Below are positions 33,060-47,177 of a DNA stretch of 64,000 bases, piece by piece. The stretch's first letter is position 1. Each line of letters opens with the position of its first letter. Below the pieces are notes generated by a model. It was given only the letters and a program-made list of their open reading frames with translations, ran no database searches and was not told where the DNA came from. Made by a program: the position numbers and the translations under genes. Origin of the DNA: Nitrososphaerota archaeon (GTDB taxonomy: Archaea > Thermoproteota > Nitrososphaeria_A > Caldarchaeales > Caldarchaeaceae); assembly GCA_041641305.1 (NCBI GenBank), contig JBEPYN010000001.1:262498-326497 (forward strand), given 5' to 3'.

Positions 33060-33605
33060 GTGCCGCGGATGTTTGAGGGCCTGCTTCTAGGAGACAGCGT
33101 AGTTGTATGGAATGTTGACCAAGCGCGGGAGCTTTACCGCACAGGATTCTATGGAAAACCCCTAGGCGTCCCCAAGCCAAGAGACCTCAACTTCGATGCC
33201 CCCCTTGTCCTCGACCTTGTCGAGGCTCTTTACCTCGCTAAGCAGCGAAAGCTGCGTATTCTCCGCGGCGACACAGAGATTTCTCCCGAGGATTTTGAGG
33301 AATATGCCGCATCGGTGGAGCCGAACTTCAAAACAAAGTACCATGTCTACGCAGACCTACGTGAACGTGGTTTCATAGTCCTGCCGGGGATAAAGTTCGG
33401 CAGCGACTTCGCGGTTTACCGACATGGCCCCGGCATAGACCATGCGCCATTCATCATACAGATTAAGAAGGGTGATGATAGGCTTTCTGCCTTGGAGATA
33501 ATTAGGGCGGGGCGCCTCGCCACCTCTGTCAAAAAACATTTCACGATATCTGTGCCCACTGATGATAAAGTTGTGTACCTGATGTTTGAGTGGTGGAGAG
33601 CTTAA
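33060..33605 (+). CDS. endA: tRNA-splicing endonuclease catalytic subunit (crenarchaeal short form)
   Basis: 181 aa with 'YHVYADLRERGFIV' and a C-terminal catalytic region ('...SVK..') typical of EndA. Its size fits the catalytic subunit of the heterotetrameric crenarchaeal enzyme. Confidence 0.75.
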   Translation: MPRMFEGLLLGDSVVVWNVDQARELYRTGFYGKPLGVPKPRDLNFDAPLVLDLVEALYLAKQRKLRILRGDTEISPEDFEEYAASVEPNFKTKYHVYADLRERGFIVLPGIKFGSDFAVYRHGPGIDHAPFIIQIKKGDDRLSALEIIRAGRLATSVKKHFTISVPTDDKVVYLMFEWWRA

Positions 33606-34258
33606 ACCATACGGATGTAGATGACGTGGAGTAGTTTTCCAAATTTCTTGATTTCGAGCAGCTTGTGCCCCGTGCGCTCGGCGTAGGCAATCATGTCAAC
33701 CTCTGTAGCCGGTTCAGAGGTTATCACATGCAGGCTCTCCCCAACCTTGAGGTAACGCGAGATAAAGTCGCCGACCTGTGTCAGGATGTTTTCACATGTT
33801 TCGCCGAAAACTGTGAGACGGAAATCGGCAAGTGTTTCTAAACAGGCCACGCCTCTCTCCGCGTTTATCGCGGCAAATTTTTCGGCGGCTGTCGACGAGT
33901 CCACAGCATTTGTCAGGGGTTTCTCCGCACGCACCTTTGCTAGCCATCCCTCATCGTAGGTGTTTTTCACCAAAAGCTCCGGTGTCAAAACCGGGTTAGT
34001 CTCAAGTATAATGCAGTCGACTGGTGCAAGCAAGGCGGCGTCGGCCCGTGGGTTGGACAACACCGCCAGCATGGTGTTTTTCTTGGCCAGCGTACCTGAT
34101 TGCCTCACGGTGACCCGGTGAGGTTTTCCGACAAAAAATAGATAGGGTTTTACGACGCCTACTAGGTAGGTGTTGTCTGAGAGAGGCTGCATCCAGAGGT
34201 CGTGTTCCACAACGTATAGTCTGTCGCTTGGGTAAATGCAGCCGTCAGCCTGGGTCAA
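33602..34258 (-). CDS. fusion of a glycine-cleavage H-protein-like domain and a TusA-like domain
   Basis: Residues 1-115 align to GcvH ('...APVDCIILETNPVLTPELLVKNTYDEGWLAKV' against the GcvH '...APVSGEIVEVN...PELVN.DPY.eGWifki'), but the position of the lipoyl-lysine ('ESVKA') reads 'SNPRA', i.e. Arg. The C-terminal ~75 aa match the TusA pattern ('GETCENIL...LKVGESLHVITSEPATEVDMIAYAERTGHKLLEIKK') with the Cys retained (CE rather than the usual CP). 4-nt overlap with the rhodanese gene. Confidence 0.55.
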   Translation of the reverse strand: MTQADGCIYPSDRLYVVEHDLWMQPLSDNTYLVGVVKPYLFFVGKPHRVTVRQSGTLAKKNTMLAVLSNPRADAALLAPVDCIILETNPVLTPELLVKNTYDEGWLAKVRAEKPLTNAVDSSTAAEKFAAINAERGVACLETLADFRLTVFGETCENILTQVGDFISRYLKVGESLHVITSEPATEVDMIAYAERTGHKLLEIKKFGKLLHVIYIRMV

Positions 34259-35106
34259 CGCTGCCGCTCAATCGGGAAACGGACGAGGTTCCCCCACTCA
34301 GTCCAGCTGCCGTCGTAAACTCTTACCCTCGGGTATCCGAGGAGATGCTTGAGGACAAACCATGTGACGCTGGCTCGTTCACCGATGCGGCAGTATGTCA
34401 CCACGTCCTTTTCAGGAGTCACACCTTTCGACGCGTAGAGCTGCTTAAGCTCCTCGGCCGACTTGAATGTTCCGTCTTCTCTGATAGCTTGTCCCCATGG
34501 AATGTTTATGGCGCCCGGTATGTGGCCTCCTCGTTGTGCATGCTCGTTGGGGTACTCTGGTGGGGCTGTTATCTCGCCTGTGAACTCGGCTGGTGAACGG
34601 ACGTCGACAAGAACGAGGTCGGCTTTCCCAACTTTTTCTCTGAGAAGCTCGTCGAAGAAGACGCGGTTTTCATATTTGACCTTCTCCACTTTATAGACCG
34701 CTGGCTTAGGTGTTGGAACCTCCTTAGTCAATTCCCCGCCCGTGTCTATCCATTTTTTTCTCCCGCCGTTTAGTATCTGAACTTTCTTGTGACCATATAT
34801 TTCGAAGACCCAGAAGGCGAATGTTGCGAACCAGTTGTTGTAGTCGCCGTAGAGGATGACGTGTGTGTCGTTTGAGACGCCGAGTCTGCTCAACAGTTTC
34901 TCAAACTCCTCCGGACCTATGATGTCCCTCTGATCGGGCTTGTTCATGTCCTTTCTCCAGTCTATCAACAGCGCGCCTGGGATGTGACCCTGCTCGTAGG
35001 CCAGCTTCGGGTCATAGTCCACCTCTATCACTGTTATGCCTGGTTTTCCGAGATTTGCTTTCAGCCACTCAACCTCTACCAAAACCGATGGGTTTGCGTA
35101 TGTCAT
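34255..35106 (-). CDS. tandem-domain rhodanese (thiosulfate/3-mercaptopyruvate sulfurtransferase family)
   Basis: Two rhodanese domains with the active-site loop 'CRIGERAS' in the second. Start placed at 'MTYANPSVLVEVEWL', the canonical rhodanese N-terminus. The ORF track extends to 35172, which would overlap fixC. Confidence 0.75.
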   Translation of the reverse strand: MTYANPSVLVEVEWLKANLGKPGITVIEVDYDPKLAYEQGHIPGALLIDWRKDMNKPDQRDIIGPEEFEKLLSRLGVSNDTHVILYGDYNNWFATFAFWVFEIYGHKKVQILNGGRKKWIDTGGELTKEVPTPKPAVYKVEKVKYENRVFFDELLREKVGKADLVLVDVRSPAEFTGEITAPPEYPNEHAQRGGHIPGAINIPWGQAIREDGTFKSAEELKQLYASKGVTPEKDVVTYCRIGERASVTWFVLKHLLGYPRVRVYDGSWTEWGNLVRFPIERQR

Positions 35107-35130
35107 GTGGTTTATATGCATGATGCAAGA

Positions 35131-35138
35131 TTTATAGG
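35131..35138 (-). promoter_or_regulatory. TATA-like element (CCTATAAA) about 28 nt upstream of the rhodanese ATG, within a 60-bp AT-rich island
   Basis: Minus-strand sequence after the fixCX stop reads GATATTTCCCAATTATTATTGTAGAATAATAACCTATAAATCTTGCATCATGCATATAAACCACATG. The spacing fits a leaderless archaeal transcript starting at the rhodanese ATG. Confidence 0.4.
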
Positions 35139-35168: not shown

Positions 35169-36866
35169 TCACCCGTACCTGAACTTAACCCCGTGCCCAT
35201 GCCACTCATGGCCAAACCTCACGACCTCAGACGGCCCTATGACCCCGCATGTTCCACACGCCACGCACGCCACATGGTCAAACTTCAACAACCCATTCCT
35301 GATGTCGTTCCAGGTCATTTCAAGGGCCTTTTTCTCGGCCTCGTTTATGTTTAGTCCCTGTTTCATTAGGTTCTCAAGGTTTAGACGATAAAGGTCTCTG
35401 AAGCTGGAGAACACCCCTTTCTCGGTTACGAGGGTGTAGCAGCTCACCGGACAGAGCGGTATCCATGCCTTGTATGGGTCGCGGGATGCAGCATCCTCAT
35501 CTACCGCTATGTGACTCCTGACCTTATCCTCGTGATACTCGAGTTTACCAATATATTGCTGAATTTTCTGAACCATGTCCCGCTGCACATCCCTCATGTT
35601 GATGACGCGGCCCACCGAAGATTTCCCGAAACCCAAACTGAACCCGATAGATGGGAGAACAGAATAGGCGAAACGACCCTCTGTTAGCCTACTGTTTGAC
35701 CGCGATTTCTCCACTCTCCTGTATAACGGCTCTAGGAGAATGCGGTAAACAGAGAGGGAGGCGTCGCTGAAGTCGTTTCGTTTCTTGGCTTCGATGAAGG
35801 TTTTAGCGGCAGCTATTCCCGAGGCTACGGCTGGTCTCATCCCGTCGATCAAGGCACCCATTTTGTAGAAGACGCCGAGGGAGTCTCCGGCCATCAGGAA
35901 ACCCGGTGCATAGGGTTTCTGCGGCAGGATTTTGTAGCCACGCGGTATGTTGTGGGCCGAGTACTCGACGAGGGTTGCACCCTCGAGCAAGGGGCCGAGA
36001 AACGGATGCTCCTCCATCTCCTCTAAGAGGTCGAGCGGCTTACCAACTTCCGTGAAGTCTTTCGTGAACTTTTCTATGCCCGATGAGAGGTCTATGACTA
36101 TGCCGACCGATACGGTGTCACGGTTTGGGTACACGAACCCGCCTCCCACAACGCCGTGCATAAAAGGCCCGATAAGGTAAACAGATTTGTAGCCATCTCC
36201 CGTGGAGAAAAATTCCTCTATCCGTTCTGGGTTGACTTTGAAGATGTGCTTAACGCCGTGGTAGACCTGGTCTGGTGTGAGCTTGGACCTTATGCCAGCC
36301 TTTTCGGGAAGTAGGCTGGTGACCCCTCCGCAGTCTATAACCAAGTCCGCGTAAACCTCTTCGTCAACAGTCTTCACACCCACAACTCTCCCATCTCTCC
36401 AAACAAGCTCTTCAACAGTTTTACGGCTGGTAAGCATAGCTCCCTCCTCGGTCGCGACACCGGCAAGCCAACGGTCAAACCGAGCCCTCAAAACAGAATA
36501 ATCATGTCCGGTGGAGGCGTCGAGCATGGTGAAACCCAGCTTGGTAAAGAGAGATGATTTGTCGAGCTTGATGTATCGGTAACTCGCCTCACCGTCTTGC
36601 TTACGCGGCGAGCTCAACATGTACAACTCATGGCCAACGATTTTCCGCTCTAATGGTGCGTGTTCCTCAAACTCCGGCACCAAGTCAACTAGCCCGAGCC
36701 CGTTCTCAAATGCTCCGAATAATACGCCGCCGGAAACATTTCTCTGCCCCGGGAGCTGCGCCTTCTCCAACACGAGAACATCAAAACCTTCCCGGGCGAG
36801 TTTAATCGCCGCCGCACTTCCCGCGGGCCCCGCCCCAACAACAACGACGTCAAACTTTTCAACCAT
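35169..36866 (-). CDS. electron-transfer flavoprotein:quinone oxidoreductase-like FAD protein fused to a ferredoxin-like domain (FixC-FixX type)
   Basis: N-terminal 'FDVVVVGAGPAGSAAAIKLA' FAD fold. The C-terminal tail 'CVACGTCGVIGP' and upstream Cys residues form a FixX-like 4Fe-4S ferredoxin domain. 565 aa. Confidence 0.8.
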   Translation of the reverse strand: MVEKFDVVVVGAGPAGSAAAIKLAREGFDVLVLEKAQLPGQRNVSGGVLFGAFENGLGLVDLVPEFEEHAPLERKIVGHELYMLSSPRKQDGEASYRYIKLDKSSLFTKLGFTMLDASTGHDYSVLRARFDRWLAGVATEEGAMLTSRKTVEELVWRDGRVVGVKTVDEEVYADLVIDCGGVTSLLPEKAGIRSKLTPDQVYHGVKHIFKVNPERIEEFFSTGDGYKSVYLIGPFMHGVVGGGFVYPNRDTVSVGIVIDLSSGIEKFTKDFTEVGKPLDLLEEMEEHPFLGPLLEGATLVEYSAHNIPRGYKILPQKPYAPGFLMAGDSLGVFYKMGALIDGMRPAVASGIAAAKTFIEAKKRNDFSDASLSVYRILLEPLYRRVEKSRSNSRLTEGRFAYSVLPSIGFSLGFGKSSVGRVINMRDVQRDMVQKIQQYIGKLEYHEDKVRSHIAVDEDAASRDPYKAWIPLCPVSCYTLVTEKGVFSSFRDLYRLNLENLMKQGLNINEAEKKALEMTWNDIRNGLLKFDHVACVACGTCGVIGPSEVVRFGHEWHGHGVKFRYG

Positions 36867-37953
36867 TGTATCCGCCCTCTATCAACTCGATTAAACGCGG
36901 CACGATTTGGTAAAGGTCTCCCTTGACACCGTAGTGCGCGATCTCGAATATGGGGGCTTTGGGGTCGGTGTTTACGGCGACTATTTTCTTGGATTTTATC
37001 ATGCCGACCCTATGCTGCACCGAGCCGCTTATCCCGAGAGCAACGTAGACGTCAGGCGATACTGTTTTACCCGTCTGCCCCACTTGTCTCTCAGATGTTA
37101 TCAATCCCTCCAGCTCCTTCAGTTCAGCGTGTATCAACGCACGGGTCGCGCCCAGCTCGGCTTTGACGCCGAGGCGTGTTTTGATGACTTCCACAAGTTT
37201 CTTGGCCAGTTCATAGCCCTCCCTCGGGTTGCGTGGGTTGCCCTTGCCGTCCTTGAGAATGCCCAAACCTATGCTAACAACTACCTTGGCCTCCTCGAGC
37301 TCGACAGGGCTCTTCGGCACCTCCCTTTCCTCCAAAACCTGAACAAGAAAATCGTCGGGGTTCGGCTCGGGCCTCAGCCTAACCTTTTCACCGGCCCTGC
37401 TCCTGTCCTCGGGAAGGGGGTCGAAGTTCCCGGGCCTAATGCTCGCTATCTGAGGCCTGTGACGAGGTGTGTAGATTTTCGCCACACGTGTCGCGAAGTC
37501 AGGCCTTATCTGGGCCAAAACGTTTTTGAAAGTTGTGTTGAGCGGCCCGAAGTAGTAGTCTTCGACGGCGAGGTTGATGTTGTCGGTGGCCAATCCTGTG
37601 TTGAGCCTGTAGGCGACACGTGGAGAAAGGTCTCGCCCAAGCTCGTCTGCGACAAAAAGCAGCGCATAGGGCTTGTATCTCTCCACCATCTCGCAGACTA
37701 TGCGAGTATATGGTAGACACTGGTAGCTCCGTAGCCAAGGCTCATCTGCATAGTAGACCACGTCAGCGCCCCTTGCAATTGCTTCGTCCACTGCATTCTC
37801 CACATCATATCCTATGATAACGGCTCCAACCCTCTGCTCAATTTTGTCAGCTACTTTCCGAGTCGCGGCGATAATCTCAAGGCTCGGCCTCGTCAGCCTT
37901 CCTTTATCCAAGGCGCAGTAAGCCCACACATCCCTATACTGCTCGAGCGACAA
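36859..37953 (-). CDS. electron transfer flavoprotein alpha subunit (EtfA/FixB)
   Basis: C-terminal FAD-binding motif 'ALGISGSVQHRVGM...IVAVNTDPKAPIFEIAHYGVKGDLYQIVPRL'. 8-nt overlap with fixCX. Confidence 0.85.
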   Translation of the reverse strand: MSLEQYRDVWAYCALDKGRLTRPSLEIIAATRKVADKIEQRVGAVIIGYDVENAVDEAIARGADVVYYADEPWLRSYQCLPYTRIVCEMVERYKPYALLFVADELGRDLSPRVAYRLNTGLATDNINLAVEDYYFGPLNTTFKNVLAQIRPDFATRVAKIYTPRHRPQIASIRPGNFDPLPEDRSRAGEKVRLRPEPNPDDFLVQVLEEREVPKSPVELEEAKVVVSIGLGILKDGKGNPRNPREGYELAKKLVEVIKTRLGVKAELGATRALIHAELKELEGLITSERQVGQTGKTVSPDVYVALGISGSVQHRVGMIKSKKIVAVNTDPKAPIFEIAHYGVKGDLYQIVPRLIELIEGGYNG

Positions 37954-39181
37954 CCTTCACACCTCCGAAAACCTCCTCAACCAAGTCTTCTAGAGTAAAT
38001 ACGTCAACAGCTTTTTGCGCCGCCAGTGAGTCGATAAGCTCCTTGGGAAGGTTGTTTACAGGGTCTCCTTTCTTGAATGGCCCATATGTTTTCCCGTTCC
38101 ATTCAAGCTTCTCAACATCTTTCTTGAAGACAAGGGTCTCGCCGACAAACTTCTGGGTTGGAGGCTTTCCTATCTCATAGCCTGGGCCAACTATCGTGGG
38201 AGAGCCCATCAGCCCCAGCTTGGTTGGGTCGGCGTTTATGTAATCGGCGTTCCAGACAAGTGGATTCTCAAGCTTATGCGGATAGCTGTGCGCCCGTGCT
38301 TTTTTCTGGCTGGTGGCCGGGGGCGTTCTCGGCTCATAGTGGTGGTCTATCGTAAGAAGACATGGAAGAACCGTCCTCATCTTCTGTATTATGTTTCCGA
38401 TTTTCCTCTCAGCAATAACATGGTCAAGCTCCGGCGAAATCTCGAAATCACGTGTGAAGGCTATGCTGGGAATGGTTACGCCGAGCATCTGGCTCAACGC
38501 TTCAGCCGTCTGCGGCCCAACATTTCCCGTCTCGCCGTCGCTGGTCTTCATACCGGTCAAAATAATGAATTTTGACAAACGTTCCCGGTATTTCTCCAAC
38601 TCCGCCGACACATCCTCTCTACTTATTTCACCTCTTGCATAACGGGAGAAAACAGAGTCCTTCACAGATGGTAATTTGCTGTAGATGTGGTGTGGGAGAA
38701 AGTTCTGTTCATACAGCTCTTCTGCAAGCTTGAGAGCCTCATCCACCGAGGACTTCTCAACAACATCCTTGAGCCTGTCAACAGCATCGAAATGGTTCTG
38801 GAGATATCGCTTGATCCCGCAGGCCAATGTGTAGGAAGTGGCCCATGTATCCGCCCCAGCCATGCGTCTGTCACTTAGGATAATTCTTTCATCAAAGCCT
38901 TCGAAAGATATCCTTGGCACATACTTGCTTTCTTCACGTGGCTCGACGAGGTCTGACATTATGGGGACGAGCTTGGGCTCGGGCCCCATCGTCATCGCCA
39001 CAATTTTTCCGCCGACAGTTTTCTTCACATAGTAAGCTGCCTCAACCGCTTTCACATCATGTGGGTTGAGGACTAGCTCCATCTCCTCACGTCGCAGAAC
39101 ACCCGACACCGTCACAACCTGCGTGGTTTTAGCCGGCACGCCCTTGACGAGACAAATAATCAACATGTCAGCCTTCCCCAC
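37934..39181 (-). CDS. electron transfer flavoprotein beta subunit (EtfB/FixA) with internal insertion and extended C-terminus
   Basis: N-terminal 130 aa are canonical EtfB ('MLIICLVKGVP...NPHDVKAVEAA...GADTWATSYTLA'), and the '...ILTGMKTSDGETGNVGPQTAE' region follows. About 75 extra residues separate these blocks and about 50 more lie at the C-terminus (415 aa in total). 20-nt overlap with etfA. Confidence 0.7.
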   Translation of the reverse strand: MGKADMLIICLVKGVPAKTTQVVTVSGVLRREEMELVLNPHDVKAVEAAYYVKKTVGGKIVAMTMGPEPKLVPIMSDLVEPREESKYVPRISFEGFDERIILSDRRMAGADTWATSYTLACGIKRYLQNHFDAVDRLKDVVEKSSVDEALKLAEELYEQNFLPHHIYSKLPSVKDSVFSRYARGEISREDVSAELEKYRERLSKFIILTGMKTSDGETGNVGPQTAEALSQMLGVTIPSIAFTRDFEISPELDHVIAERKIGNIIQKMRTVLPCLLTIDHHYEPRTPPATSQKKARAHSYPHKLENPLVWNADYINADPTKLGLMGSPTIVGPGYEIGKPPTQKFVGETLVFKKDVEKLEWNGKTYGPFKKGDPVNNLPKELIDSLAAQKAVDVFTLEDLVEEVFGGVKVVARAV

Positions 39182-40664: not shown

Positions 40665-41480
40665 GTGTTGGCCTTCCAGCTGGGTGCTGCGTTTAAGCCC
40701 AGCCTATTAGGCGACAACAAGCTCGATACAGCCATATTTTATGCGAAGGTATTGGCTCGCCTTGGCTACAGGTATCTCGTACTTGACTCGGAGAGAGCCG
40801 TTGATGACTTGTCTTTGAGAGATTTCGAGGAGCTTGTCTCGGTCTGTAAATTGCTGGGCTTCCCTGAACCTGTTATCACTATTCCTGTTAGACGTGGTGA
40901 TTGCTGGGAAAGGCTCGGTGCTGTGGTTGATGTTGTGAGCAGGGACGGGTTTGGCGGTGTCTGCCTTGTCGCGGGAAACTCGGCTTATCTTACTCGGGAG
41001 GAGGCTTCGCAGAAGCCCGGCAAATTGTTGCTCGAAGCCGCCGAAGTTTTTCGTAGGAAATGCCGGTTTAACCTTTTGATGGTTGGCACCGAACGTGTCG
41101 AGAAAACGGCTGCCAAAATAGCGGCAAACCATCGCGCTATACCAGTCATGCTAATGACACCCAACATCGTTGAGGAGACTAGACTTTATTCACATAATGG
41201 TTTACGGAGAGCTGTTTATGTCCCTTACTATTTTGGGGAGGAGCTTCCGAGAGATGTGGCGGAAAAGGTTCATGCCTATGTTTCGCGACGCGTCGGAGAC
41301 AAAAACGTAGATGAAACTTGGCGGCAATTTGTCTACACTGGCCCCCTCAACGAATTCACACAGCTTCTACGTGATTTGTCGGCAAACAACATCGACGTCT
41401 TCATAGGCTATCCGCTGGATAAACGCGTCAAACAGCTGACAGCCCTTTCTAAGGCCGTGACAGGCTTATCAACGGCTTAG
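40665..41480 (+). CDS. hypothetical protein, possible TIM-barrel (weak MTHFR-like 'VRRGD' segment)
   Basis: 271 aa, convergent with gcvT. Only a weak resemblance ('ITIPVRRGD') to methylenetetrahydrofolate reductase motifs; function unassigned. Confidence 0.3.
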   Translation: MLAFQLGAAFKPSLLGDNKLDTAIFYAKVLARLGYRYLVLDSERAVDDLSLRDFEELVSVCKLLGFPEPVITIPVRRGDCWERLGAVVDVVSRDGFGGVCLVAGNSAYLTREEASQKPGKLLLEAAEVFRRKCRFNLLMVGTERVEKTAAKIAANHRAIPVMLMTPNIVEETRLYSHNGLRRAVYVPYYFGEELPRDVAEKVHAYVSRRVGDKNVDETWRQFVYTGPLNEFTQLLRDLSANNIDVFIGYPLDKRVKQLTALSKAVTGLSTA

Positions 41481-42531
41481 TCCTAACAACCGCTTTCCTG
41501 CGACGGCCTCTGACATCGACAAAGACCTCGGCACCGTCAACGTGAATTGACGGCGGAAGATATGCTAGGGCTATTCCTTTGTTAATCGTCGGCGAGAGGC
41601 AACCGCTTGTCACCTTTCCTGCCTCAACATCACCAACATAAACTTTGTATCCGGGCCGCGGCACACCCGGCTCCACCATCTCAACCAACATGAGTCGTTT
41701 GACCGGGCCATTAGCCTGTTTTTTCTCCAGCGATTCTTTACCTATGAAAAACCGTTTATCCATTTTGACAGCCCAGAAGAGACCCGCCTCGATAGGGTCA
41801 TTCTTCTCGTCAAAATCCTGTCCATATAGCGGGAAGCCGGCCTCTATTCGGCAGACGTCGCGGCAGGCCAGCCCACATGGCTTGACACCCTGATCGGTGA
41901 AAAATTTCCAGACTTTCTCATAGAGTTCCTGTATCCCGCATAAAACCATCAACTCGTACCCGTCGCCACCGGTGTAGCCGCTTCGCGTAACCAATAGTCT
42001 GCAATCGCCCATGTTTCTGAACCCGCCCTCAAACCATTTAAAACCAGAAACATCCCCAACCAAATTTGAAACATATGCTGAGGACTTCGGGCCCTGCACC
42101 GCGAAGAAGGCGCTGCTCTCCGTGATGTCTTCAACTAACACCTCGCCCTCTATGTTATGCTCCAACCACTCCAGGACACGATTTCTCGTCAAGGCGTTTG
42201 AGACCATGAGATAACTGTTGTCCGCGACTTTGTAGACCGTGACATCGTCTATGATGCCTCCATCCATGTTAAGAATCAATCCATACTTCATCCGGCCTGG
42301 CTTCAGCCTCTCAACATCTATTGTCAGGATTTTTTGGAGAAGCTGAGTCGCGTCTGGGCCGGATATCTTTGTCCGGGTCATGTGGCTAATGTCGAAAATG
42401 CCAGCATCCCTTCTCACAGCCTCGTGCTCCTCGCGGAGAGAAGTGAATGTGATTATTGTCCGCCAGCCAGCGAACTCGCCCAGCTCCTTCGCATTCTTCT
42501 CATGAAGATGAAGCAGAGGTATTTTGTTCAT
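41449..42531 (-). CDS. gcvT: glycine cleavage system aminomethyltransferase (T protein)
   Basis: 360 aa with the GcvT fold pattern ('MTRTKISGPDA', 'NMDGGIIDD', 'SRSGYTGGDGYE'). Confidence 0.85.
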   Translation of the reverse strand: MNKIPLLHLHEKNAKELGEFAGWRTIITFTSLREEHEAVRRDAGIFDISHMTRTKISGPDATQLLQKILTIDVERLKPGRMKYGLILNMDGGIIDDVTVYKVADNSYLMVSNALTRNRVLEWLEHNIEGEVLVEDITESSAFFAVQGPKSSAYVSNLVGDVSGFKWFEGGFRNMGDCRLLVTRSGYTGGDGYELMVLCGIQELYEKVWKFFTDQGVKPCGLACRDVCRIEAGFPLYGQDFDEKNDPIEAGLFWAVKMDKRFFIGKESLEKKQANGPVKRLMLVEMVEPGVPRPGYKVYVGDVEAGKVTSGCLSPTINKGIALAYLPPSIHVDGAEVFVDVRGRRRKAVVRTKPLISLSRP

Positions 42532-44038
42532 TCTGTCTCCTCCGCAACATGCGCATACTGAGGGTTAAATGCATTGGGTGGGAGGCTTTGGCCTCGTTTA
42601 TTCTCCCAACGGCTGTGTTGTGTGGAGCCGATTTAACCAGCTGAGGCGAGTCATAGCATTCCTGAATCACTTTGGATAGGGCTTCGTAGAAGTTGTCGAG
42701 CGTTTCCTTGCTCTCTGTCTCTGTCGGCTCTATCATGAAAGCCTCCTCAATAATCAGCGGAAAATATATCGTCGGCGCATGGACGCCATAGTCGAGGAGG
42801 CGCTTCGCGACCTCAAGCGCTCCGAGTCCAGTCTCTTTTCTGAGCTTGGCGAGGCTGACGACGAACTCGTGTTTTCTTGGACGTGTCGGGTCGTAGGGGA
42901 GTGTGACGCCTCGCAGCCTCCTCACCTTGCTTAGCAGATAGTTTGAAGACGAGACCGCGTAGAGTGCGGATCGTCTCAGACCTTCACCGCCAAGCGCAAG
43001 GATGTAAGCATATGCTCGTAGAAGAACAGCGAAGTTTCCTGTAAAGAGCTTGACTGGGCCTATGCTAGATGGCCCACCATCGTCTAATAAGTATCGTCCG
43101 TCGCCTGTTTTGACCACTCTCGGAGGAGGCAGGTATTTTGCCAGTTTTGCGACGACTCCTACTGGCCCTGCGCCCGGGCCTCCTCCACCATGTGGTGTGG
43201 AGAAGGTTTTGTGAAGATTGAGGTGAACGATGTCGAAGCCCATGTCACCCGGCCTCGCGACACCGACTATTGCGTTGAGGTTTGCGCCGTCGTAGTATAG
43301 CAGGGAATCGTTTTGATGCATGATTCGGACGATTTCTTCGATGCCTTTCTCGAACAATCCGATTGTGTTGGGGTTTGTCAGCATTATGCCGGCGACGTCT
43401 CCGTCAACCATTTTCTCGAGCATCTCGAGGTCGACGCATCCGTCTTCACGTGTTCTCACCACCTTGACGTCGAAGCCCGCCATGGCGGCGCTTGCAGGGT
43501 TTGTCCCGTGGGCTGAGTCTGGGACGATGATTTTCGGCCTCGGCTTCCCTTCTTTCTCGCTGTGGTAGGCTCTGATGATGAGGCATCCAACCAGTTCTCC
43601 ATGCGCACCGGCCGCGGGAACCATCGAGAAAGCATCCATGCCCGTCAACTCCTTCAGCGCCTGCTCGAGGTTGTATAGAATCTCGAGACATCCCTGTACG
43701 GTTTCCACTGGCTGGAGTGGATGAATGTCGGCGACTTGGTCGGCGATTTGGTTGTTTACTACGGGGTTGTATTTCATGGTGCAGCTGCCGAGTGGGTAGA
43801 AGCCTGTGGAGATACTGTAGTTCATTTGGCTTAGGCGTGTGAAGTGTCTCACAACAGTCAGTTCTGAGAGCTCTGGCAGGGTGAGGCTATCTCTGAGGAG
43901 TTTTCCCGGAATTTTGCTGAGGCTTCTTTCTCCCGCCTCCCTAATCTCTCGAGGATTTGATGGAACCTTGAAACCTATGACACCGGGACGTGACAACTCG
44001 TAGACAAGTTTCTCATCCCAGTAAGCCTGACGGAACAT
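42500..44038 (-). CDS. gcvPB: glycine dehydrogenase (decarboxylating) subunit 2 (P protein, C-terminal half)
   Basis: Begins 'MFRQAYWDEKLVYE' and contains the PLP-lysine region. Start placed at the Met giving the canonical N-terminus, which overlaps the gcvPA stop by 1 nt. Confidence 0.9.
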   Translation of the reverse strand: MFRQAYWDEKLVYELSRPGVIGFKVPSNPREIREAGERSLSKIPGKLLRDSLTLPELSELTVVRHFTRLSQMNYSISTGFYPLGSCTMKYNPVVNNQIADQVADIHPLQPVETVQGCLEILYNLEQALKELTGMDAFSMVPAAGAHGELVGCLIIRAYHSEKEGKPRPKIIVPDSAHGTNPASAAMAGFDVKVVRTREDGCVDLEMLEKMVDGDVAGIMLTNPNTIGLFEKGIEEIVRIMHQNDSLLYYDGANLNAIVGVARPGDMGFDIVHLNLHKTFSTPHGGGGPGAGPVGVVAKLAKYLPPPRVVKTGDGRYLLDDGGPSSIGPVKLFTGNFAVLLRAYAYILALGGEGLRRSALYAVSSSNYLLSKVRRLRGVTLPYDPTRPRKHEFVVSLAKLRKETGLGALEVAKRLLDYGVHAPTIYFPLIIEEAFMIEPTETESKETLDNFYEALSKVIQECYDSPQLVKSAPHNTAVGRINEAKASHPMHLTLSMRMLRRRQNEQNTSASSS

Positions 44039-45408
44039 CAAACCACACCCTTCACAGTCTCCAAATAATCCCGGATGTCCTCGACGCTGTGAACCTCTGT
44101 CACACACGTCAACACACCGTCGCCCAGTTGCGGAAAATCATCCACAATCCTGATGCCCCCAACTATTCCGATGCTTAGAAGCCTCTTCAACAGCTCCTCA
44201 GATGAGTGTCCCTCTTTTCTGTAGGTGAACTCCATGTAATGTGGGGCATTTAGCAGCGGCGCCTTTACTCCATCCACCTTCTGGAAACATTCGATGAAGT
44301 AGGCCGTCTTCTCGAAGATGTGTCGAGCGAGTGATTGAAGTCCATGTTTGCCCAGAAGCGAGAGATAGGCTGCGGCTGTTATGGCGCAGAGAGCCTGGTT
44401 GGTGCAGATGTTTGAGGTGGCTTTTTCGCGTTTGATGTCTTGTTCTCTGGCCCTTAGCACCATCGTGAAAGCTCGCCTCCCATCCCCAAGTGTCTCAGCC
44501 ATACCCACCATCCTGCCAGGCATGCTGTGGATAAGCTTCCGGTCGCCGCTGCACCCCAATACCCCAAGCAGTGGGCCGCCAAAATTCATCGGAAGACCGA
44601 GCGGCTGACCCTCGCCGACGACGATGTCGGCTCCCATCGCTCCCGGCGGCCGCAGCAAACCGAGAGAAATCGGCTCTGCACCTACTACGAACAAGGCGTT
44701 TCTGTCGTGGGCAATTTCGCCTACCGCTTCAACATTCTCCACTAAGGCCCCGAGGTAGCACGGGTTCTCGACATAAACAGCAGAAGTCTCATCGTCAACC
44801 AACGTTTTCAACTCCTCCTCATCCACTTTTCCCGTCTCGTCGAATGATGCCTTAACGAGCTTGAGGCCCAACGGCTTAACATATGTCTCGGCCACACGTA
44901 TTCTCCCGGGGCCACAGTGGCCTGCGTAGACGATCTTGTCTCGGCCGTTGTATCGATATGCCATTCTGAAGGCCTCTCCCAAGGCTGTGGCCCAGTCATA
45001 CATGGAGGAGTTTACGACGTCCACTTCATAGAGGTCTGCGACAAGGCTCTGGAACTCGAACAAGGCTGTTAAAACACCCTGCGAAACCTCGGGCTGATAA
45101 GGGGTATAGCTTGTTACAAACTCGCTTCTTGAAGCAATCTCCTTCACAGCGGCTGGAACATGGTGTGGCCATACACCTCCTCCCAAGAAGAGACGGAGAC
45201 CCTGCCTATTTTTGGACAAAATGTTTTTGACATGTTTGATCAGCTCAGGTTCGGAGAACGGACCTTCAAGACTCGGCGGAGAACTGAGAATATAACGGGA
45301 TGGGATGTCTGCGTAGAGCTCCATTATGTCTTTGACACCTATCGCGTGAAGCATCTGACGCAGGTCTTCTTCCGTATGATGCCCGATGTAGGGAAAAACC
45401 TTATCCAT
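44038..45408 (-). CDS. gcvPA: glycine dehydrogenase (decarboxylating) subunit 1 (P protein, N-terminal half)
   Basis: 456 aa, 'MDKVFPYIGHHTEEDLRQMLHAIGV...' is a typical GcvPA N-terminus. Confidence 0.9.
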   Translation of the reverse strand: MDKVFPYIGHHTEEDLRQMLHAIGVKDIMELYADIPSRYILSSPPSLEGPFSEPELIKHVKNILSKNRQGLRLFLGGGVWPHHVPAAVKEIASRSEFVTSYTPYQPEVSQGVLTALFEFQSLVADLYEVDVVNSSMYDWATALGEAFRMAYRYNGRDKIVYAGHCGPGRIRVAETYVKPLGLKLVKASFDETGKVDEEELKTLVDDETSAVYVENPCYLGALVENVEAVGEIAHDRNALFVVGAEPISLGLLRPPGAMGADIVVGEGQPLGLPMNFGGPLLGVLGCSGDRKLIHSMPGRMVGMAETLGDGRRAFTMVLRAREQDIKREKATSNICTNQALCAITAAAYLSLLGKHGLQSLARHIFEKTAYFIECFQKVDGVKAPLLNAPHYMEFTYRKEGHSSEELLKRLLSIGIVGGIRIVDDFPQLGDGVLTCVTEVHSVEDIRDYLETVKGVV

Positions 45409-45479: not shown

Positions 45480-46160
45480 GTGAATCTCCGCTATCCTCTG
45501 ATCGTCCTCAACTTTAAGACATACAGGGAGTCTATCGGAAGAAAAGCTCTCGAGCTCGCCAAAACGGCTGAGAAAGCCGCTGAACAGACGGGTGTATCCG
45601 TAGCTGTGTGCCCATCTATGGTTGATCTTGCGATGGTTGCATCAAGTGTCTCCATACCTGTTTTTGCTCAGCACTGCGACCCCTACACCCCGGGAGCCTA
45701 CACGGGCTCGGTTGTGGCAGAGGCGTTGAAGGAATCGGGGGCCGCCGGCTCTCTCCTCAACCATTCTGAGAAAAAGCTGAGGCTAAGCGATTTATCGGAA
45801 TCTGTGAAACGGCTCAAAAGCAACGGCCTGATTTCTATTGTCTGTGCTGACGATCCATCGGCTGCGACAGCCGCTGCTGCTCTTGGCCCGGACGTGTTGG
45901 CGGTGGAGCCTCCTGAGCTGATTGGGACAGGGATATCGGTTTCGACAGCCAGGCCCGAAGTGGTTACGGAGACTGTTTCTCGTGTGAAGTTCCTTGCATC
46001 GGGTGTCAGAGTGCTGTGCGGAGCCGGCGTATCGACTGCCGAAGATGTTTCAAGGGCCCTTCAGCTGGGCACCGACGGAGTGTTGTTATCCAGCGCATAT
46101 GTCAAGGCACGCGACCCGTTGGCCCTTCTCGTCAAGATGTGTGAAGCCGCACTCCGCTAA
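45480..46160 (+). CDS. tpiA: triosephosphate isomerase (archaeal short form)
   Basis: 226 aa with 'LNFKTY', the 'NHSEKKL' catalytic His region and 'VEPPELIGTG' Glu loop. Confidence 0.85.
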   Translation: MNLRYPLIVLNFKTYRESIGRKALELAKTAEKAAEQTGVSVAVCPSMVDLAMVASSVSIPVFAQHCDPYTPGAYTGSVVAEALKESGAAGSLLNHSEKKLRLSDLSESVKRLKSNGLISIVCADDPSAATAAAALGPDVLAVEPPELIGTGISVSTARPEVVTETVSRVKFLASGVRVLCGAGVSTAEDVSRALQLGTDGVLLSSAYVKARDPLALLVKMCEAALR

Positions 46161-46540
46161 ACAATCATCAGCTTCATTCTCCTACCTTCTCCGTCGAGAA
46201 CATGGATGTCACTTTCGTTGCGATAAGGAGATGTTACGATAACCATCAGCTCACCCATCATGTTGTTTAGGTCTTCAACGGAGGGGTGCGGGGCTCCTGA
46301 TGGGTGGGAATGAGCCACTCCGAGGAAAGATTCGTCAATGGGTAGCAGGTAGGGGTTGAATGAGGAGAAGCTTTCGCCATATGTTGACTGGGGTGGAAAA
46401 GAAACTTCCTCGACAAGGTAACCGGTCTTGTCTCTGCGGCCATGGAGAAGAACTATCATCTCCCTGGGGTGGATGTTGCGGGATATTTCTAGAAGAAGCG
46501 CCGCGACCTCCCTGCGCATATGGACAATTTCTCGAGCCAT
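46157..46540 (-). CDS. minimal JAMM/MPN metalloprotease-like protein
   Basis: 'GVAHSHPSGAPHPSVEDL' JAMM motif in a ~125-aa protein. Start placed at the Met 4 nt downstream of the phoU stop. Confidence 0.6.
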   Translation of the reverse strand: MAREIVHMRREVAALLLEISRNIHPREMIVLLHGRRDKTGYLVEEVSFPPQSTYGESFSSFNPYLLPIDESFLGVAHSHPSGAPHPSVEDLNNMMGELMVIVTSPYRNESDIHVLDGEGRRMKLMIV

Positions 46541-46544
46541 GTAT

Positions 46545-47177
46545 CTATTTTCTAGGCCTATGCTGCCCCTCCAGTATGTAAGCAACAGCTTCACCTATGT
46601 AGGTGGCGTGGTCCGCGATTCTCTCAAGATACCTGAGAATGAGCATGGTAGCCATGTCGCATTTCTTTGATCCTGGATTGCTCAGACTTCGTTGGAGATG
46701 ATTCTTGTAGGCTTTGTCGACAATCGAGTCAAGTTTCTCAAGCTCTGCGGCGAGCTCAAGGTTCTTCTCCACGAAGCTTTTTACGCTCTTCTCTATCATG
46801 GTTTTGACTACTTCAGCTGTTTCGAGTACCTCGGTTTTCTCACATTCATGAAGTTCTCCAAATGTGGTTATAACCTGTGATATGTCGTAGGCGTATCTGC
46901 CGAAACGTGAGAACCCATAGGCGACCTCCATGCATGAGCGAAGAAAACGTAGGTCAGTCGCCACAGGCTGGTAACGTGCTATCAGCTCAACGGCGAGGTC
47001 CGACACCTCGTCCTGAAGCCAGCGAAGCTTCTCCGAAAGCTGGAAAACTTCATCCTCGTTAGGTGTGCCTTTGATGAACCCTTCCACAGCGGCTTCCACA
47101 GCGGTCCGGCTGAGAGAAGCCATGTCGTTGAGCATGTTGACGAGCCTCTCCAAACCCAAATCCATCAGACGCGGCAA
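46545..47177 (-). CDS. phoU: phosphate transport system regulator PhoU
   Basis: Two PhoU repeats ('RIADHATYIGE', 'DSIVDKAYKNH'). Last gene of the pst operon. Confidence 0.8.
   Translation of the reverse strand: MPRLMDLGLERLVNMLNDMASLSRTAVEAAVEGFIKGTPNEDEVFQLSEKLRWLQDEVSDLAVELIARYQPVATDLRFLRSCMEVAYGFSRFGRYAYDISQVITTFGELHECEKTEVLETAEVVKTMIEKSVKSFVEKNLELAAELEKLDSIVDKAYKNHLQRSLSNPGSKKCDMATMLILRYLERIADHATYIGEAVAYILEGQHRPRK

What the first reader, a model, noticed from the sequence alone, without database searches (positions are those of the whole stretch)
33602..34258. GcvH-like domain lacking the lipoyl-lysine, fused to a Cys-retaining TusA-like domain
The N-terminal half carries the GcvH signature tail '...PELLVKNTYDEGWLAKV'. 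In my hand alignment the residue corresponding to the lipoylated Lys (E-S-V-K-A in canonical H proteins) is Arg (S-N-P-R-A), so this H-like domain would not be lipoylatable. The C-terminal domain follows the TusA pattern closely, but the active-site motif reads 'TCEN' instead of 'CPxP'. The Cys is retained, consistent with persulfide carriage.

I am not aware of a described family that fuses an H-protein fold to TusA. The canonical gcvT-PA-PB genes about 7 kb downstream have no gcvH beside them, so the relationship between this degenerate H domain and the true H protein is an open question.
Basis: partly seen in the sequence, partly recalled or inferred. Interest (0 to 1): 0.65.

Follow-up and report, generated by a model that had tools for sequence, protein, structure and literature searches.

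The report
Lipoate-less LbpA-like/TusA sulfur-carrier fusion
This archaeal gene fuses a lipoate-carrier-type domain that has lost its lipoate-attachment lysine to a TusA-type sulfur-carrier domain; it belongs to a widespread, unstudied archaeal family that is usually encoded next to a rhodanese sulfurtransferase, so it is most likely a cysteine-based sulfur relay and not part of glycine cleavage.

Summary
ORF 33602-34258 (-) encodes a 218-aa protein with an H-protein fold (Pfam GCV_H, E=7e-10) joined to a TusA fold. Arg71 sits where the lipoyl-lysine should be, and the TusA cysteine (Cys155) is kept in a 'GETCEN' motif instead of CPxP.

The interpretation needs refining.
- **The N-domain is LbpA-type, not plain GcvH.** LbpA is the lipoate-binding protein of sHdr sulfur oxidation. 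The N-domain carries the two extra cysteines that define LbpA (Cys7, Cys139). All 123 family members score higher on an LbpA profile than on a GcvH profile.
- **The fusion is not unique to Caldarchaeum.** At least 80 full-length copies, and up to 196, occur in archaeal species genomes (Nitrososphaeria, Thermoplasmata, Marsarchaeota, Aigarchaeota and others).
- **The lipoyl position is not a lipoylation site.** It reads R in 82, K in 36, T in 4 and V in 1. K and R swap at least 20 times, even between proteins 94% identical.
- **Three cysteines are near-invariant.**
- **A rhodanese is the only broadly conserved neighbour.** It is a two-domain enzyme with a YCRIGER[SA] active site, present in 55 of 67 informative loci. 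No sHdr, DsrE or lipoate-assembly genes are nearby.
- **A normal GcvH exists elsewhere in the genus.**

Most likely function (inferred): a lipoate-independent rhodanese → TusA-Cys → LbpA-type Cys pair relay. I found no publication on this fusion.

The parts
33602..34258 (-). Fusion gene, 218 aa, TTG start: LbpA-like H-fold domain, linker helix, then TusA-like domain
   Evidence: ORF; Pfam GCV_H + TusA; AF2 pLDDT 96.2, pTM 0.88; dN/dS 0.115
33905..34258 (-). N-terminal H-protein/LbpA-like domain (residues 1-118). Includes Cys7 (codon 34238-34240) and Arg71 at the lipoyl-hairpin position (codon 34046-34048).
   Evidence: phmmer and Foldseek matches to solved H-proteins. The LbpA profile scores 74.1 bits and the GcvH profile 50.7 bits. 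C7 is present in 119 of the 120 members that have a residue at this column; the lipoyl column reads R82/K36/T4/V1.
33824..33904 (-). Linker helix (residues 121-135) and the conserved 'RGVAC' segment with Cys139 (codon 33842-33844). Cys139 corresponds to the C-terminal cysteine of LbpA.
   Evidence: Alignment with bona fide LbpA proteins. C139 is present in 122/123 members. dN/dS for residues 119-140 is 0.007.
33605..33823 (-). TusA-like domain (residues 146-218). The invariant Cys155 (codon 33794-33796) lies in 'GETCEN' at the N-terminus of helix 155-169.
   Evidence: Foldseek 3lvj_C TM 0.89. BLASTP to the sHdr-cluster TusA E=7e-11 and to E. coli TusA E=3e-6, with the cysteines aligned. C155 is present in 123/123 members.
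34255..35106 (-). Cognate two-domain rhodanese, 283 aa from the ATG at 35106. Its single cysteine is Cys239 (34390-34392) in 'YCRIGERA'. Its stop codon overlaps the fusion gene's start.
   Evidence: Pfam Rhodanese E=4.9e-40. The motif is conserved in 69/72 neighbouring rhodaneses. It is a neighbour in 55/67 informative loci. Start and cysteine positions.
35130..35138 (-). TATA-like AT-rich element (CCTATAAAT), 24-32 nt upstream of the rhodanese ATG, in the 62-nt gap after the fixCX stop codon. Putative promoter of a rhodanese-fusion bicistron.
   Evidence: The sequence and its conservation across six Caldarchaeum lineages. Promoter function is inferred, not shown.
35169..39181 (-). Lineage-specific upstream neighbours: etfB-like (37934-39181), etfA (36859-37953) and a fixC-fixX fusion (35169-36866). 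Probably not part of the module.
   Evidence: Pfam and NCBIfam. They are present next to the fusion only in Caldarchaeum and absent in L011, L012 and the 80 other loci.

Best explanation
**Shown.**
- The protein is a rigid two-domain fusion of an LbpA-type H-protein fold and a TusA-type fold.
- It cannot carry lipoate, because Arg replaces the lipoyl-lysine. Across the family this position is simply basic (R or K), so lipoylation is not the conserved function.
- What is conserved is a set of three cysteines: Cys7 and Cys139, which are the LbpA-specific pair, and Cys155, the TusA active-site cysteine.
- A two-domain thiosulfate-sulfurtransferase-type rhodanese with a single active-site cysteine is encoded next to it. 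Here the two genes are translationally coupled.
- The protein is not the H protein of the glycine cleavage system.

**Inferred mechanism.**
- The rhodanese takes sulfane sulfur from thiosulfate, or from another sulfane donor, onto Cys239 as a persulfide.
- It hands that sulfur to Cys155 of the TusA-like domain.
- The sulfur is then passed to, or resolved by, the Cys7/Cys139 pair of the LbpA-like domain. This pair stands in for the dithiol of dihydrolipoamide.
- The end result is either delivery of persulfide sulfur to an unidentified acceptor, or release of sulfide with formation of a protein disulfide.
- The conserved basic residue at the hairpin tip may stabilise an anionic persulfide or thiosulfonate, or may serve partner docking.

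The final acceptor is unknown. The sporadic neighbours (MOSC, A-type Fe-S carrier, Elp3, MobA-like) hint at biosynthetic sulfur supply rather than energy metabolism.
For: **Architecture and fold:**

**LbpA affinity.**
- Cao et al. 2018 define LbpA by two strictly conserved cysteines, one near each terminus, that GcvH lacks.
- These cysteines align with C7 and C139.
- The best non-fusion hits of the family profile are ~145-160-aa proteins with N-terminal Cys, 'ESGKW' and C-terminal Cys, from Aquificota, Acidiferrobacter, Hydrogenisulfobacillus and Chloroflexota.
- One of them lies inside a tusA-dsrE-hdrC1B1A-hdrC2B2-dsrE-lbpA-radical-SAM cluster. Another lies next to an LplA-like ligase.
- All 123 N-domains score higher on the LbpA profile (median 112.8 bits) than on the GcvH profile (median 58.0 bits).

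**No lipoylation.** The lipoyl column reads R82/K36/T4/V1. There are at least 20 state changes on a neighbour-joining tree, and K/R swaps occur between proteins 94% identical.

**Cysteines.** C7 is present in 119/120 members, C139 in 122/123 and C155 in 123/123.

**Rhodanese link.**
- It is present within 5 kb in 55/67 loci that have at least 1.5 kb of flank on both sides, and directly adjacent in 48.
- It occurs in two different arrangements: convergent in 44 loci, and co-directional (overlapping or closely adjacent) in 7. The link therefore survives rearrangement across phyla.
- The motif YCRIGER[SA] is found in 69/72 rhodaneses.

**TusA link to sulfur oxidation.** The C-domain is 32% identical to an sHdr-cluster TusA. 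TusA co-purifies with LbpA proteins in Aquifex (PMC11094781). Rhodanese is known to use dihydrolipoate as acceptor (cited in PMC6067878).

**Purifying selection on both domains:**
Against: - No experiment exists for any member; all come from uncultivated archaea.
- I could not read model coordinates. Whether C7, C139, C155 and R71 are close in space is therefore untested.
- 12 of 67 informative loci have no rhodanese within 5 kb, so the partnership is not obligatory, or the partner gene lies elsewhere.
- 29% of members keep a lysine, which could still be lipoylated in those organisms.
- The acceptor and physiological role are unknown.
- The TusA match of this particular protein is marginally below Pfam's cut-off, and the CPxP motif is absent.
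Confidence: 0.55

Rival explanations
1. It is a genuine lipoate-carrying LbpA or GcvH in the lysine-bearing members. The arginine forms, including this one, are degenerate or decaying copies.
For: 36 of 123 members keep Lys in a recognisable E-S-x-K hairpin. The closest stand-alone relatives (LbpA) are strictly lipoylated.
Against: - Arg is the majority state (82/123).
- K and R swap at least 20 times, even at 94% identity.
- Arg-bearing genes are under purifying selection (dN/dS 0.115) and keep all three cysteines.
- No lipoate ligase or lipoyl synthase gene lies near any of the 92 loci.
Confidence: 0.08
2. It is an accessory or regulatory H-protein mimic of the glycine cleavage system, acting on the T and P proteins encoded 7 kb away.
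For: It has the H-protein fold. gcvT/PB/PA lie on the same strand with no gcvH beside them.
Against: - The gcv genes are separated from it by six genes, including one on the opposite strand.
- The proximity exists only in the collinear Caldarchaeum genomes and not in other lineages.
- A canonical 'ESVK' GcvH exists elsewhere in the genus.
- The domain carries LbpA-specific, not GcvH-specific, features.
Confidence: 0.03
3. In Caldarchaeum it is part of an ETF-coupled dissimilatory sulfane-sulfur oxidation module (etfBA-fixCX-rhd-fusion) that sends electrons to the quinone pool. This would be analogous to type II sHdr clusters, which contain EtfAB plus an ETF:menaquinone oxidoreductase.
For: - Five co-directional genes lie with overlaps or short gaps.
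- The arrangement is conserved in all Caldarchaeum lineages down to 45% identity.
- Type II shdr clusters carry EtfAB, a quinone reductase, LbpA and TusA (PMC11094781).
Against: - No sHdr-like catalytic subunit is in the window or in any locus.
- ETF genes are absent next to the fusion outside Caldarchaeum.
- A conserved TATA-like element separates fixCX from the rhodanese gene.
- Acyl-CoA dehydrogenase and thiolase genes in the window give ETF an ordinary role.
- The whole 20-kb region is collinear, so the conserved order carries little weight.
Confidence: 0.12
4. It is a non-relay thiol protein that merely tends to sit near a rhodanese gene. It could be a sulfane-sulfur sensor or buffer, or a thiol-disulfide redox protein.
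For: It has three conserved cysteines and a compact rigid fold. 12 of 67 loci lack the rhodanese. Neighbours such as pirin and AHSA1/SRPBCC proteins are not sulfur enzymes.
Against: - The TusA-fold cysteine is invariant and aligns with a known persulfide-carrying residue.
- The rhodanese link holds in two gene arrangements across phyla.
- There is no DNA-binding or signalling domain.
Confidence: 0.15

Closest known systems
[quoted passage not shown] 2018, eLife, PMC6067878)
   Same: - H-protein fold.
- A conserved cysteine near the N-terminus ('GC.xP.D') and another just after the C-terminal helix ('..C[FM]..'); both are absent from GcvH.
- The best profile match.
- A functional association with TusA and rhodanese-type sulfurtransferases.
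   Different: - The strictly conserved lipoyl-lysine of LbpA is Arg here, and R/K/T/V across the family.
- The protein is fused to a TusA-like domain rather than stand-alone.
- No shdr, dsrE, lipoate ligase or LipS genes are nearby.
- It is found in archaeal lineages not known as sHdr sulfur oxidisers.
TusA / SirA sulfur carrier (Pfam PF01206; E. coli TusA, PDB 3LVJ)
   Same: - Same fold (TM 0.89, rmsd 1.6 A).
- The cysteine lies at the N-terminus of helix 1 and aligns with TusA Cys19.
- The 'D-P-A-T' segment is shared.
   Different: - The CPxP motif is replaced by C-E-N-I here. The family consensus is E-C-[SA]-A, and only 5 of 123 members have C-P.
- The Pfam score is just below the cut-off for this member.
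- The domain is covalently attached to an LbpA-like domain.
GcvH, the H protein of the glycine cleavage system
   Same: The overall fold (TM 0.85 to 1onl), the GCV_H Pfam match and the 'P-Y-x-x-G-W' tail.
   Different: - There is no lipoyl-lysine.
- It has extra cysteines and an extra domain.
- It scores far below the NCBIfam GcvH cut-offs (38 bits against 117).
- A real GcvH is encoded elsewhere in the genus.
Rhodanese with a dithiol acceptor (rhodanese with dihydrolipoate or thioredoxin; the Rhd-TusA-DsrE relays of sulfur oxidisers, PMC11094781)
   Same: A rhodanese with a CRxGxR active site is encoded beside a TusA-type carrier. A pair of thiols is available as acceptor.
   Different: The acceptor thiols would be two protein cysteines on an H-protein scaffold rather than lipoamide or thioredoxin. 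There is no DsrE partner.

Membership tests
GcvH (glycine cleavage H protein) | H-protein fold and GCV_H profile match | tested here: met
   Pfam E=7.2e-10, above the cut-off. Foldseek 1onl_A TM 0.85.
GcvH (glycine cleavage H protein) | Lipoyl-lysine in the E-S-V-K hairpin | tested here: not met
   Arg71 aligns with the lipoyl-Lys. The family column reads R82/K36/T4/V1.
GcvH (glycine cleavage H protein) | Reaches the curated equivalog score (NCBIfam TIGR00527 / PRK01202) | tested here: not met
   33.3 bits against a cut-off of 115.85, and 38.3 bits against 117.
GcvH (glycine cleavage H protein) | It is the organism's only H protein, serving gcvT/P | tested here: inconclusive
   A canonical 135-aa GcvH with 'ESVKATS' is encoded at another locus in Ca. 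Caldiarchaeum subterraneum MAGs. It was not shown for the very genome of this window, of which only 64 kb is available.
LbpA (sHdr-associated lipoate-binding protein) | Two conserved cysteines that GcvH lacks, one near the N-terminus and one near the C-terminus | tested here: met
   C7 and C139 align with the LbpA cysteines. They are present in 119/120 and 122/123 members. The definition comes from PMC6067878.
LbpA (sHdr-associated lipoate-binding protein) | Closer to LbpA than to GcvH by profile score | tested here: met
   74.1 bits against 50.7 for this protein. The LbpA score is higher in 123 of 123 members. Caveat: only two proteins of my LbpA set were verified by genomic context.
LbpA (sHdr-associated lipoate-binding protein) | Strictly conserved lipoyl-lysine | tested here: not met
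   Arg71 here. K and R interchange freely across the family.
LbpA (sHdr-associated lipoate-binding protein) | Encoded in or next to shdr genes and lipoate-assembly genes | tested here: not met
   tblastn with HdrA/B/C, DsrE, LipS and LplA queries finds nothing in the window, and nothing in 92 loci apart from one ferredoxin-like hit. Whole genomes could not be searched.
TusA / SirA (PF01206) | TusA alpha/beta fold | tested here: met
   Foldseek 3lvj_C E=3e-5, TM 0.89, rmsd 1.6 A.
TusA / SirA (PF01206) | Pfam gathering score | tested here: inconclusive
   27.6 bits against a cut-off of 28.6 for this protein. 34 of 35 family members match at E<0.01, with a best E-value of 6.7e-14.
TusA / SirA (PF01206) | Conserved cysteine at the N-terminus of helix 1 | tested here: met
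   C155 aligns with E. coli TusA Cys19 and with the cysteine of an sHdr-cluster TusA. It is invariant in 123/123 members.
TusA / SirA (PF01206) | C-P-x-P motif | tested here: not met
   The motif is C-E-N-I here. The residue after the cysteine is S in 63, A in 37, E in 13 and P in only 5 members.
TusA / SirA (PF01206) | Carries a persulfide or thiosulfonate on the cysteine | not testable with these tools
   This needs protein mass spectrometry.
Rhodanese (partner gene), thiosulfate-sulfurtransferase type | Tandem rhodanese domains with a C-R-x-G-x-[RT] active-site loop | tested here: met
   Pfam finds two rhodanese stretches, E=4.9e-40. The loop is 'YCRIGERA', and Cys239 is the only cysteine. 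The motif is present in 69/72 neighbouring orthologues.

The most novel reading that the evidence does not exclude
The family is a self-contained, lipoate-independent three-cysteine sulfur module. The LbpA-specific cysteine pair, whose role in bona fide LbpA is still unexplained, would be the real sulfur- or redox-active site. It would accept sulfur from the fused TusA cysteine, and the hairpin would need only a basic residue.

Together with its rhodanese, the protein would form a minimal thiosulfate- or sulfane-sulfur processing system that is widespread in non-sulfur-oxidising archaea. It might be close to the evolutionary precursor of the sHdr-LbpA-TusA system. It would also be a natural 'Rosetta-stone' fusion indicating that LbpA and TusA act on each other directly.
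Probability: 0.3. Interest if true: 0.75.

Novelty: new variant of a known kind. Interest (0 to 1): 0.62.

Why it matters
- LbpA and TusA are central to a recently discovered and still mechanistically unclear sulfur-oxidation pathway (sHdr). How sulfur reaches LbpA, and what LbpA's two extra cysteines do, are open questions.
- In this family evolution has welded the two partners together and discarded the lipoate attachment site while keeping all three cysteines. It separates the cysteine function from the lipoate function, which makes the cysteine function directly testable.
- It warns that hundreds of archaeal genes annotated 'glycine cleavage system H protein' or 'TusA family protein' are neither.
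- It identifies a conserved rhodanese-carrier gene pair in abundant soil and hot-spring archaea whose sulfur trafficking is essentially unknown.

Tried and rejected
- **Word-indexed homologue search.** It found only 11 Caldarchaeum proteins, which suggested a genus-specific oddity. The exhaustive HMMER search and the genome scan overturned that.
- **Genome scan with the 35-sequence alignment.** It was repeated with a 13-sequence subfamily. As a result the 80 loci are biased towards the 'DDPTAPIE' subfamily.
- **First greedy ORF caller.** It lost the fusion gene in 34 high-GC loci. I replaced it with all-ORF clustering, which creates spurious antisense clusters (clusters 0, 1 and 3). These were recognised and discarded.
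- **ETF link to type II sHdr.** I considered it and down-weighted it (see rivals).
- **Search for sHdr, DsrE, LipS and LplA** in the window and in all loci. Nothing was found.
- **P0006.** This looked like a third variant but is a partial protein. Its N-part ('ESVEEMY') is unrelated to the family, and its C-part is identical to P0002. It is probably an assembly chimera and was excluded.
- **Model coordinates.** They are not exposed, so Cys-Cys and Arg-Cys distances could not be measured.
- **Literature searches** for any LbpA/GcvH-TusA fusion returned nothing relevant. Subscription-only papers, such as the 2019 TusA review, were not searchable.
- **Window's 447-aa OB-fold protein.** It could not be confirmed as TiaS, so the tRNA-modification neighbourhood idea remains a loose lead.
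Full report
**What is at the coordinates.** The minus-strand ORF 33602-34258 encodes 218 aa from a TTG that overlaps the stop codon of the upstream gene (TTGA). An identical protein is on record from Candidatus Caldarchaeum MAGs, so the window comes from an aigarchaeote (Caldarchaeales). The gene is real and under constraint. Its 86%-identical orthologue also starts with TTG. dN/dS is 0.115 overall, 0.22 for the N-domain, 0.007 around the linker and 0.064 for the C-domain.

**Checking the observation.**
- Pfam finds GCV_H (residues 14-114, E=7.2e-10, above the cut-off) and TusA (170-216, E=2.7e-6, 27.6 bits against a cut-off of 28.6).
- NCBIfam GcvH and TusA equivalogs are hit only far below their cut-offs.
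- phmmer against solved structures aligns 'LSNPRADAALLAPV' with 'VESVKTASDIYAPV' of T. thermophilus H-protein and with the E. coli equivalent. Arg71 therefore takes the place of the lipoyl-lysine. MAFFT alignments agree.
- With a 35-sequence alignment, AlphaFold gives pLDDT 96.2 and pTM 0.88 in all five models. The protein is thus predicted as one rigid two-domain body, and R71 lies in the turn between strands 63-68 and 73-77.
- Foldseek matches the N-domain to H-proteins (1onl TM 0.85, rmsd 1.8 A) and the C-domain to E. coli TusA (3lvj_C TM 0.89, rmsd 1.6 A). No solved structure covers both domains.
- Cys155 in 'GETCEN' aligns with the active-site cysteine of E. coli TusA and of an sHdr-cluster TusA.
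- gcvT, gcvPB and gcvPA lie at 41.4-45.4 kb on the same strand. tblastn finds no other gcvH-like sequence in the window.

**The family is large, not a Caldarchaeum curiosity.**
- The word-indexed search returned only 11 Caldarchaeum proteins.
- An exhaustive HMMER search of 1.84 billion representatives with the family profile found about 32 further 50%-identity clusters. These are 215-249 aa long and match the whole profile in one stretch.
- Those that carry names come from Aigarchaeota, Bathyarchaeia, Thermoprotei and Calditenuaceae.
- A scan of one genome per GTDB species with a subfamily alignment gave 196 confirmed loci. The 80 best were kept and all are essentially full length. They come from Nitrososphaeria/Thaumarchaeota (non-ammonia-oxidising lineages such as Gagatemarchaeum), Marsarchaeota, Thermoplasmata and related soil MAGs.
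- All are uncultivated archaea. The annotations are automatic: 'hypothetical', 'glycine cleavage system H protein' or 'TusA family protein'.
- Of 35 diverse members, 35 hit GCV_H and 34 hit TusA.

**What is conserved, and what is not.** The figures below come from 123 distinct members.
- The TusA cysteine (C155) is invariant in 123/123.
- Two further cysteines are nearly invariant: C7 in 119 of the 120 members that have a residue at this column, and C139 in 122/123.
- The lipoyl column reads R in 82, K in 36, T in 4 and V in 1.
- On a neighbour-joining tree this column changes state at least 20 times, and K/R differences occur between proteins 94% identical.

A position that tolerates Arg as readily as Lys cannot be an essential lipoylation site. 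What is selected is a basic side chain. The CPxP motif of TusA is replaced by E-C-[SA]-A in most members, and only five keep C-P.

**The N-domain is LbpA-like.**
- The best non-fusion hits of the family profile are ~145-160-aa stand-alone proteins. They have an N-terminal 'GC.xPEDL', an 'ESGKW' hairpin and a C-terminal '..C[FM]RC' or '..C'.
- They come from Aquificota, Acidiferrobacter, Hydrogenisulfobacillus and Chloroflexota.
- One, from Hydrogenivirga caldilitoris, lies in a tusA-dsrE-dsrE-hdrC1-hdrB1-hdrA-hyp-hdrC2-hdrB2-dsrE-[this protein]-radical-SAM cluster. This is the classical type I shdr-lbpA arrangement.
- Another lies next to an LplA-like ligase.
- Cao et al. [quoted passage not shown]
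- In the joint alignment, C7 and C139 of the fusion proteins fall exactly on these two cysteines. E. coli GcvH and the Caldarchaeum GcvH have neither.
- Profiles built from the LbpA-like set and from canonical GcvH score the 123 N-domains at medians of 112.8 and 58.0 bits. LbpA is higher in every case, and for this protein the scores are 74.1 and 50.7.

The protein is thus an LbpA-type domain that has lost the lysine but kept the LbpA cysteines, fused to a TusA-type domain. The latter is itself more similar to an sHdr-cluster TusA (32% identity, E=7e-11) than to E. coli TusA (28%, E=3e-6).

**Genomic context.**
- In all Caldarchaeum lineages, down to 45% identity, the order is gcvPA-PB-T, DUF7388, an OB-fold protein, etfB-like, etfA, fixC-fixX, rhodanese, fusion, then a convergent endA. 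However, the entire 20 kb is collinear, so this says little.
- In more distant Aigarchaeota the ETF and gcv genes are gone. One lineage still has the rhodanese directly upstream (L011). The other has none within 10 kb (L012).
- I called and clustered all ORFs within 5 kb of the fusion gene in 88 non-redundant loci.
- The only broadly shared neighbour is a two-domain rhodanese. It is present in 55 of the 67 loci with at least 1.5 kb of flank on both sides, and directly adjacent in 48.
- It is convergent in 44 loci (Thermoplasmata, Thaumarchaeota) and co-directional (overlapping or closely adjacent) in 7 (Aigarchaeota). A link that survives inversion across phyla indicates a functional association.
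- The rhodanese active-site loop is YCRIGER[SA] in 69 of 72. In the window enzyme, Cys239 is the only cysteine.
- Other neighbours are sporadic: AHSA1/SRPBCC (26 loci), ABC transporter (25), Elp3 (12), MOSC (12), A-type Fe-S carrier (11) and pirin (9).
- No HdrA/B/C, DsrE, LipS or LplA homologue occurs in the window. None occurs in any of 92 loci, apart from one generic ferredoxin-like hit.

**Transcription unit.**
- The rhodanese ORF can be extended to a GTG overlapping the fixCX stop, but that extension is not conserved.
- The conserved start is the ATG at 35106 (283 aa, matching the gene calls in the orthologues).
- The 62-nt gap contains conserved AT-rich blocks, including a TATA-like CCTATAAAT at 35130-35138, which is 24-32 nt before the ATG.
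- I infer a rhodanese-fusion bicistron with its own promoter. Read-through from etf-fixCX is not excluded.
- The rest of the window is housekeeping. It includes a thiolase and an acyl-CoA dehydrogenase, which are ordinary clients of ETF.

**Relation to glycine cleavage.**
- A canonical 135-aa GcvH with 'IESVKATSDIYSPISG' is encoded at an unrelated locus in Ca. Caldiarchaeum subterraneum MAGs.
- I could not show it for the exact genome of the window.
- Combined with the LbpA signature and the lack of gcv linkage elsewhere, the fusion protein is very unlikely to be the H protein of this organism's glycine cleavage system.

**How it most likely works.**
- *Shown:* the architecture, the absence of a lipoylatable residue, three conserved cysteines, the conserved rhodanese neighbour and purifying selection.
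- *Established knowledge:* rhodaneses form a Cys-persulfide from thiosulfate and can pass it to dithiols such as dihydrolipoate (cited in PMC6067878). TusA carries persulfide or thiosulfonate on its cysteine and exchanges sulfur with rhodanese and DsrE proteins. In Aquifex, TusA co-purifies with LbpA proteins (PMC11094781).
- *Inferred:* Rhd Cys239-SSH passes sulfur to TusA-domain Cys155, and then to the Cys139/Cys7 pair. That pair replaces the lipoamide dithiol. The sulfur is either forwarded as a persulfide to an unknown acceptor or released as sulfide while a disulfide forms. The basic hairpin residue may stabilise the anionic sulfur adduct or serve docking.
- *Confidence:* about 0.9 for the identity statements and about 0.55 for the relay mechanism. 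I make no call on the acceptor. MOSC, Fe-S carrier, Elp3 and MobA-like neighbours hint at biosynthetic use.

**Novelty.** Five full-text searches that could have surfaced a GcvH/LbpA-TusA fusion, or LbpA-like proteins lacking the lysine, found no such description, and neither do the three Dahl-laboratory papers I read. The parts are known and the combination is not. I classify it as a new variant of a known kind.

**Limits.**
- No member has been studied experimentally.
- Whole genomes could not be searched for sHdr or lipoate-assembly genes.
- The 80 loci are biased towards one subfamily by the search pattern.
- My LbpA reference set was verified by genomic context for only two proteins.

Noticed in passing
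L012:551-970 (+); proteins P0236-P0238, P0249: Stand-alone 139-aa GcvH homologues of Calditenuaceae/Caldarchaeales also lack the lipoyl-lysine. They read 'IESVGGSHEV' (Gly) or 'IESVRGSYEV' (Arg) where Caldarchaeum GcvH has 'IESVKATSDI'. They have no extra cysteines, so this is a second, independent lysine-less H-protein lineage. They are annotated as GcvH.
   Followed up: partly
Protein P0006 (179 aa, partial, 3-kb contig): Its C-terminal 120 residues are identical to the Caldarchaeum fusion protein P0002. Its N-terminal ~60 residues ('...GSIESVEEMYNLIMPVSG...') are a different H-like sequence with Glu at the lipoyl position. The join is at 'EDPYEEGWL'. This is either an assembly chimera or a recombinant.
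   Followed up: no
window 37934-39181 (-) and 35169-36866 (-): The EtfB-like protein is 415 aa, but only residues 28-126 match the ETF domain, so about 290 residues are unassigned. The next gene but one is a 565-aa FixC-FixX-type fusion with a weak ETF-QO ubiquinone-binding match. This is an atypical archaeal ETF/ETF-oxidoreductase set.
   Followed up: no
window 33602-33605: The fusion gene and the convergent tRNA-splicing endonuclease gene endA (33060-33605, +) overlap by 4 nt at their stop codons. The same 4-nt overlap is seen in four of the five other Caldarchaeum lineages examined (L001, L006, L007, L009); in L004/L005 the two genes abut without overlapping. There is no room for a terminator between them.
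   Followed up: partly
L011:5708-6991, L012:8596-9885; 12 Thaumarchaeota loci (e.g. L013:4788-6383, L017:3-1631): tRNA anticodon-modification genes recur beside the fusion gene. TiaS is a neighbour in two Aigarchaeota lineages. Elp3 lies directly upstream on the same strand in 12 Nitrososphaeria loci. This may be chance, or a hint that the sulfur goes to tRNA thiolation.
   Followed up: partly
L037, L045-L047, L049, L052-L055, L060, L063: One clade (soil Thermoplasmata and 'Methanobacteriota' MAGs) has the fusion gene without any rhodanese within 5 kb. Many of these loci have a pirin gene directly upstream and/or a Zn-alcohol-dehydrogenase gene convergent downstream (9 and 14 loci in the whole set).
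   Followed up: partly
window 53447-56038 (-): An 863-aa ORF has no Pfam match at E<1e-6. It sits between chorismate synthase and a TrmI-type tRNA methyltransferase.
   Followed up: no
window 41449-45408 (-): gcvPA, gcvPB and gcvT form an overlapping gene string with no gcvH. In the genus, the H protein is encoded separately, next to a CDGSH zinc-finger gene and an arcadin-1 gene (L101-L106).
   Followed up: partly
window 46157-46594 (-): A prokaryotic JAB-domain protein, a deubiquitinase/desampylase-type metalloprotease, lies about 12 kb from the fusion gene. Caldarchaeum is known for a ubiquitin-like modifier system (from my own knowledge). No link to the sulfur module was tested.
   Followed up: no
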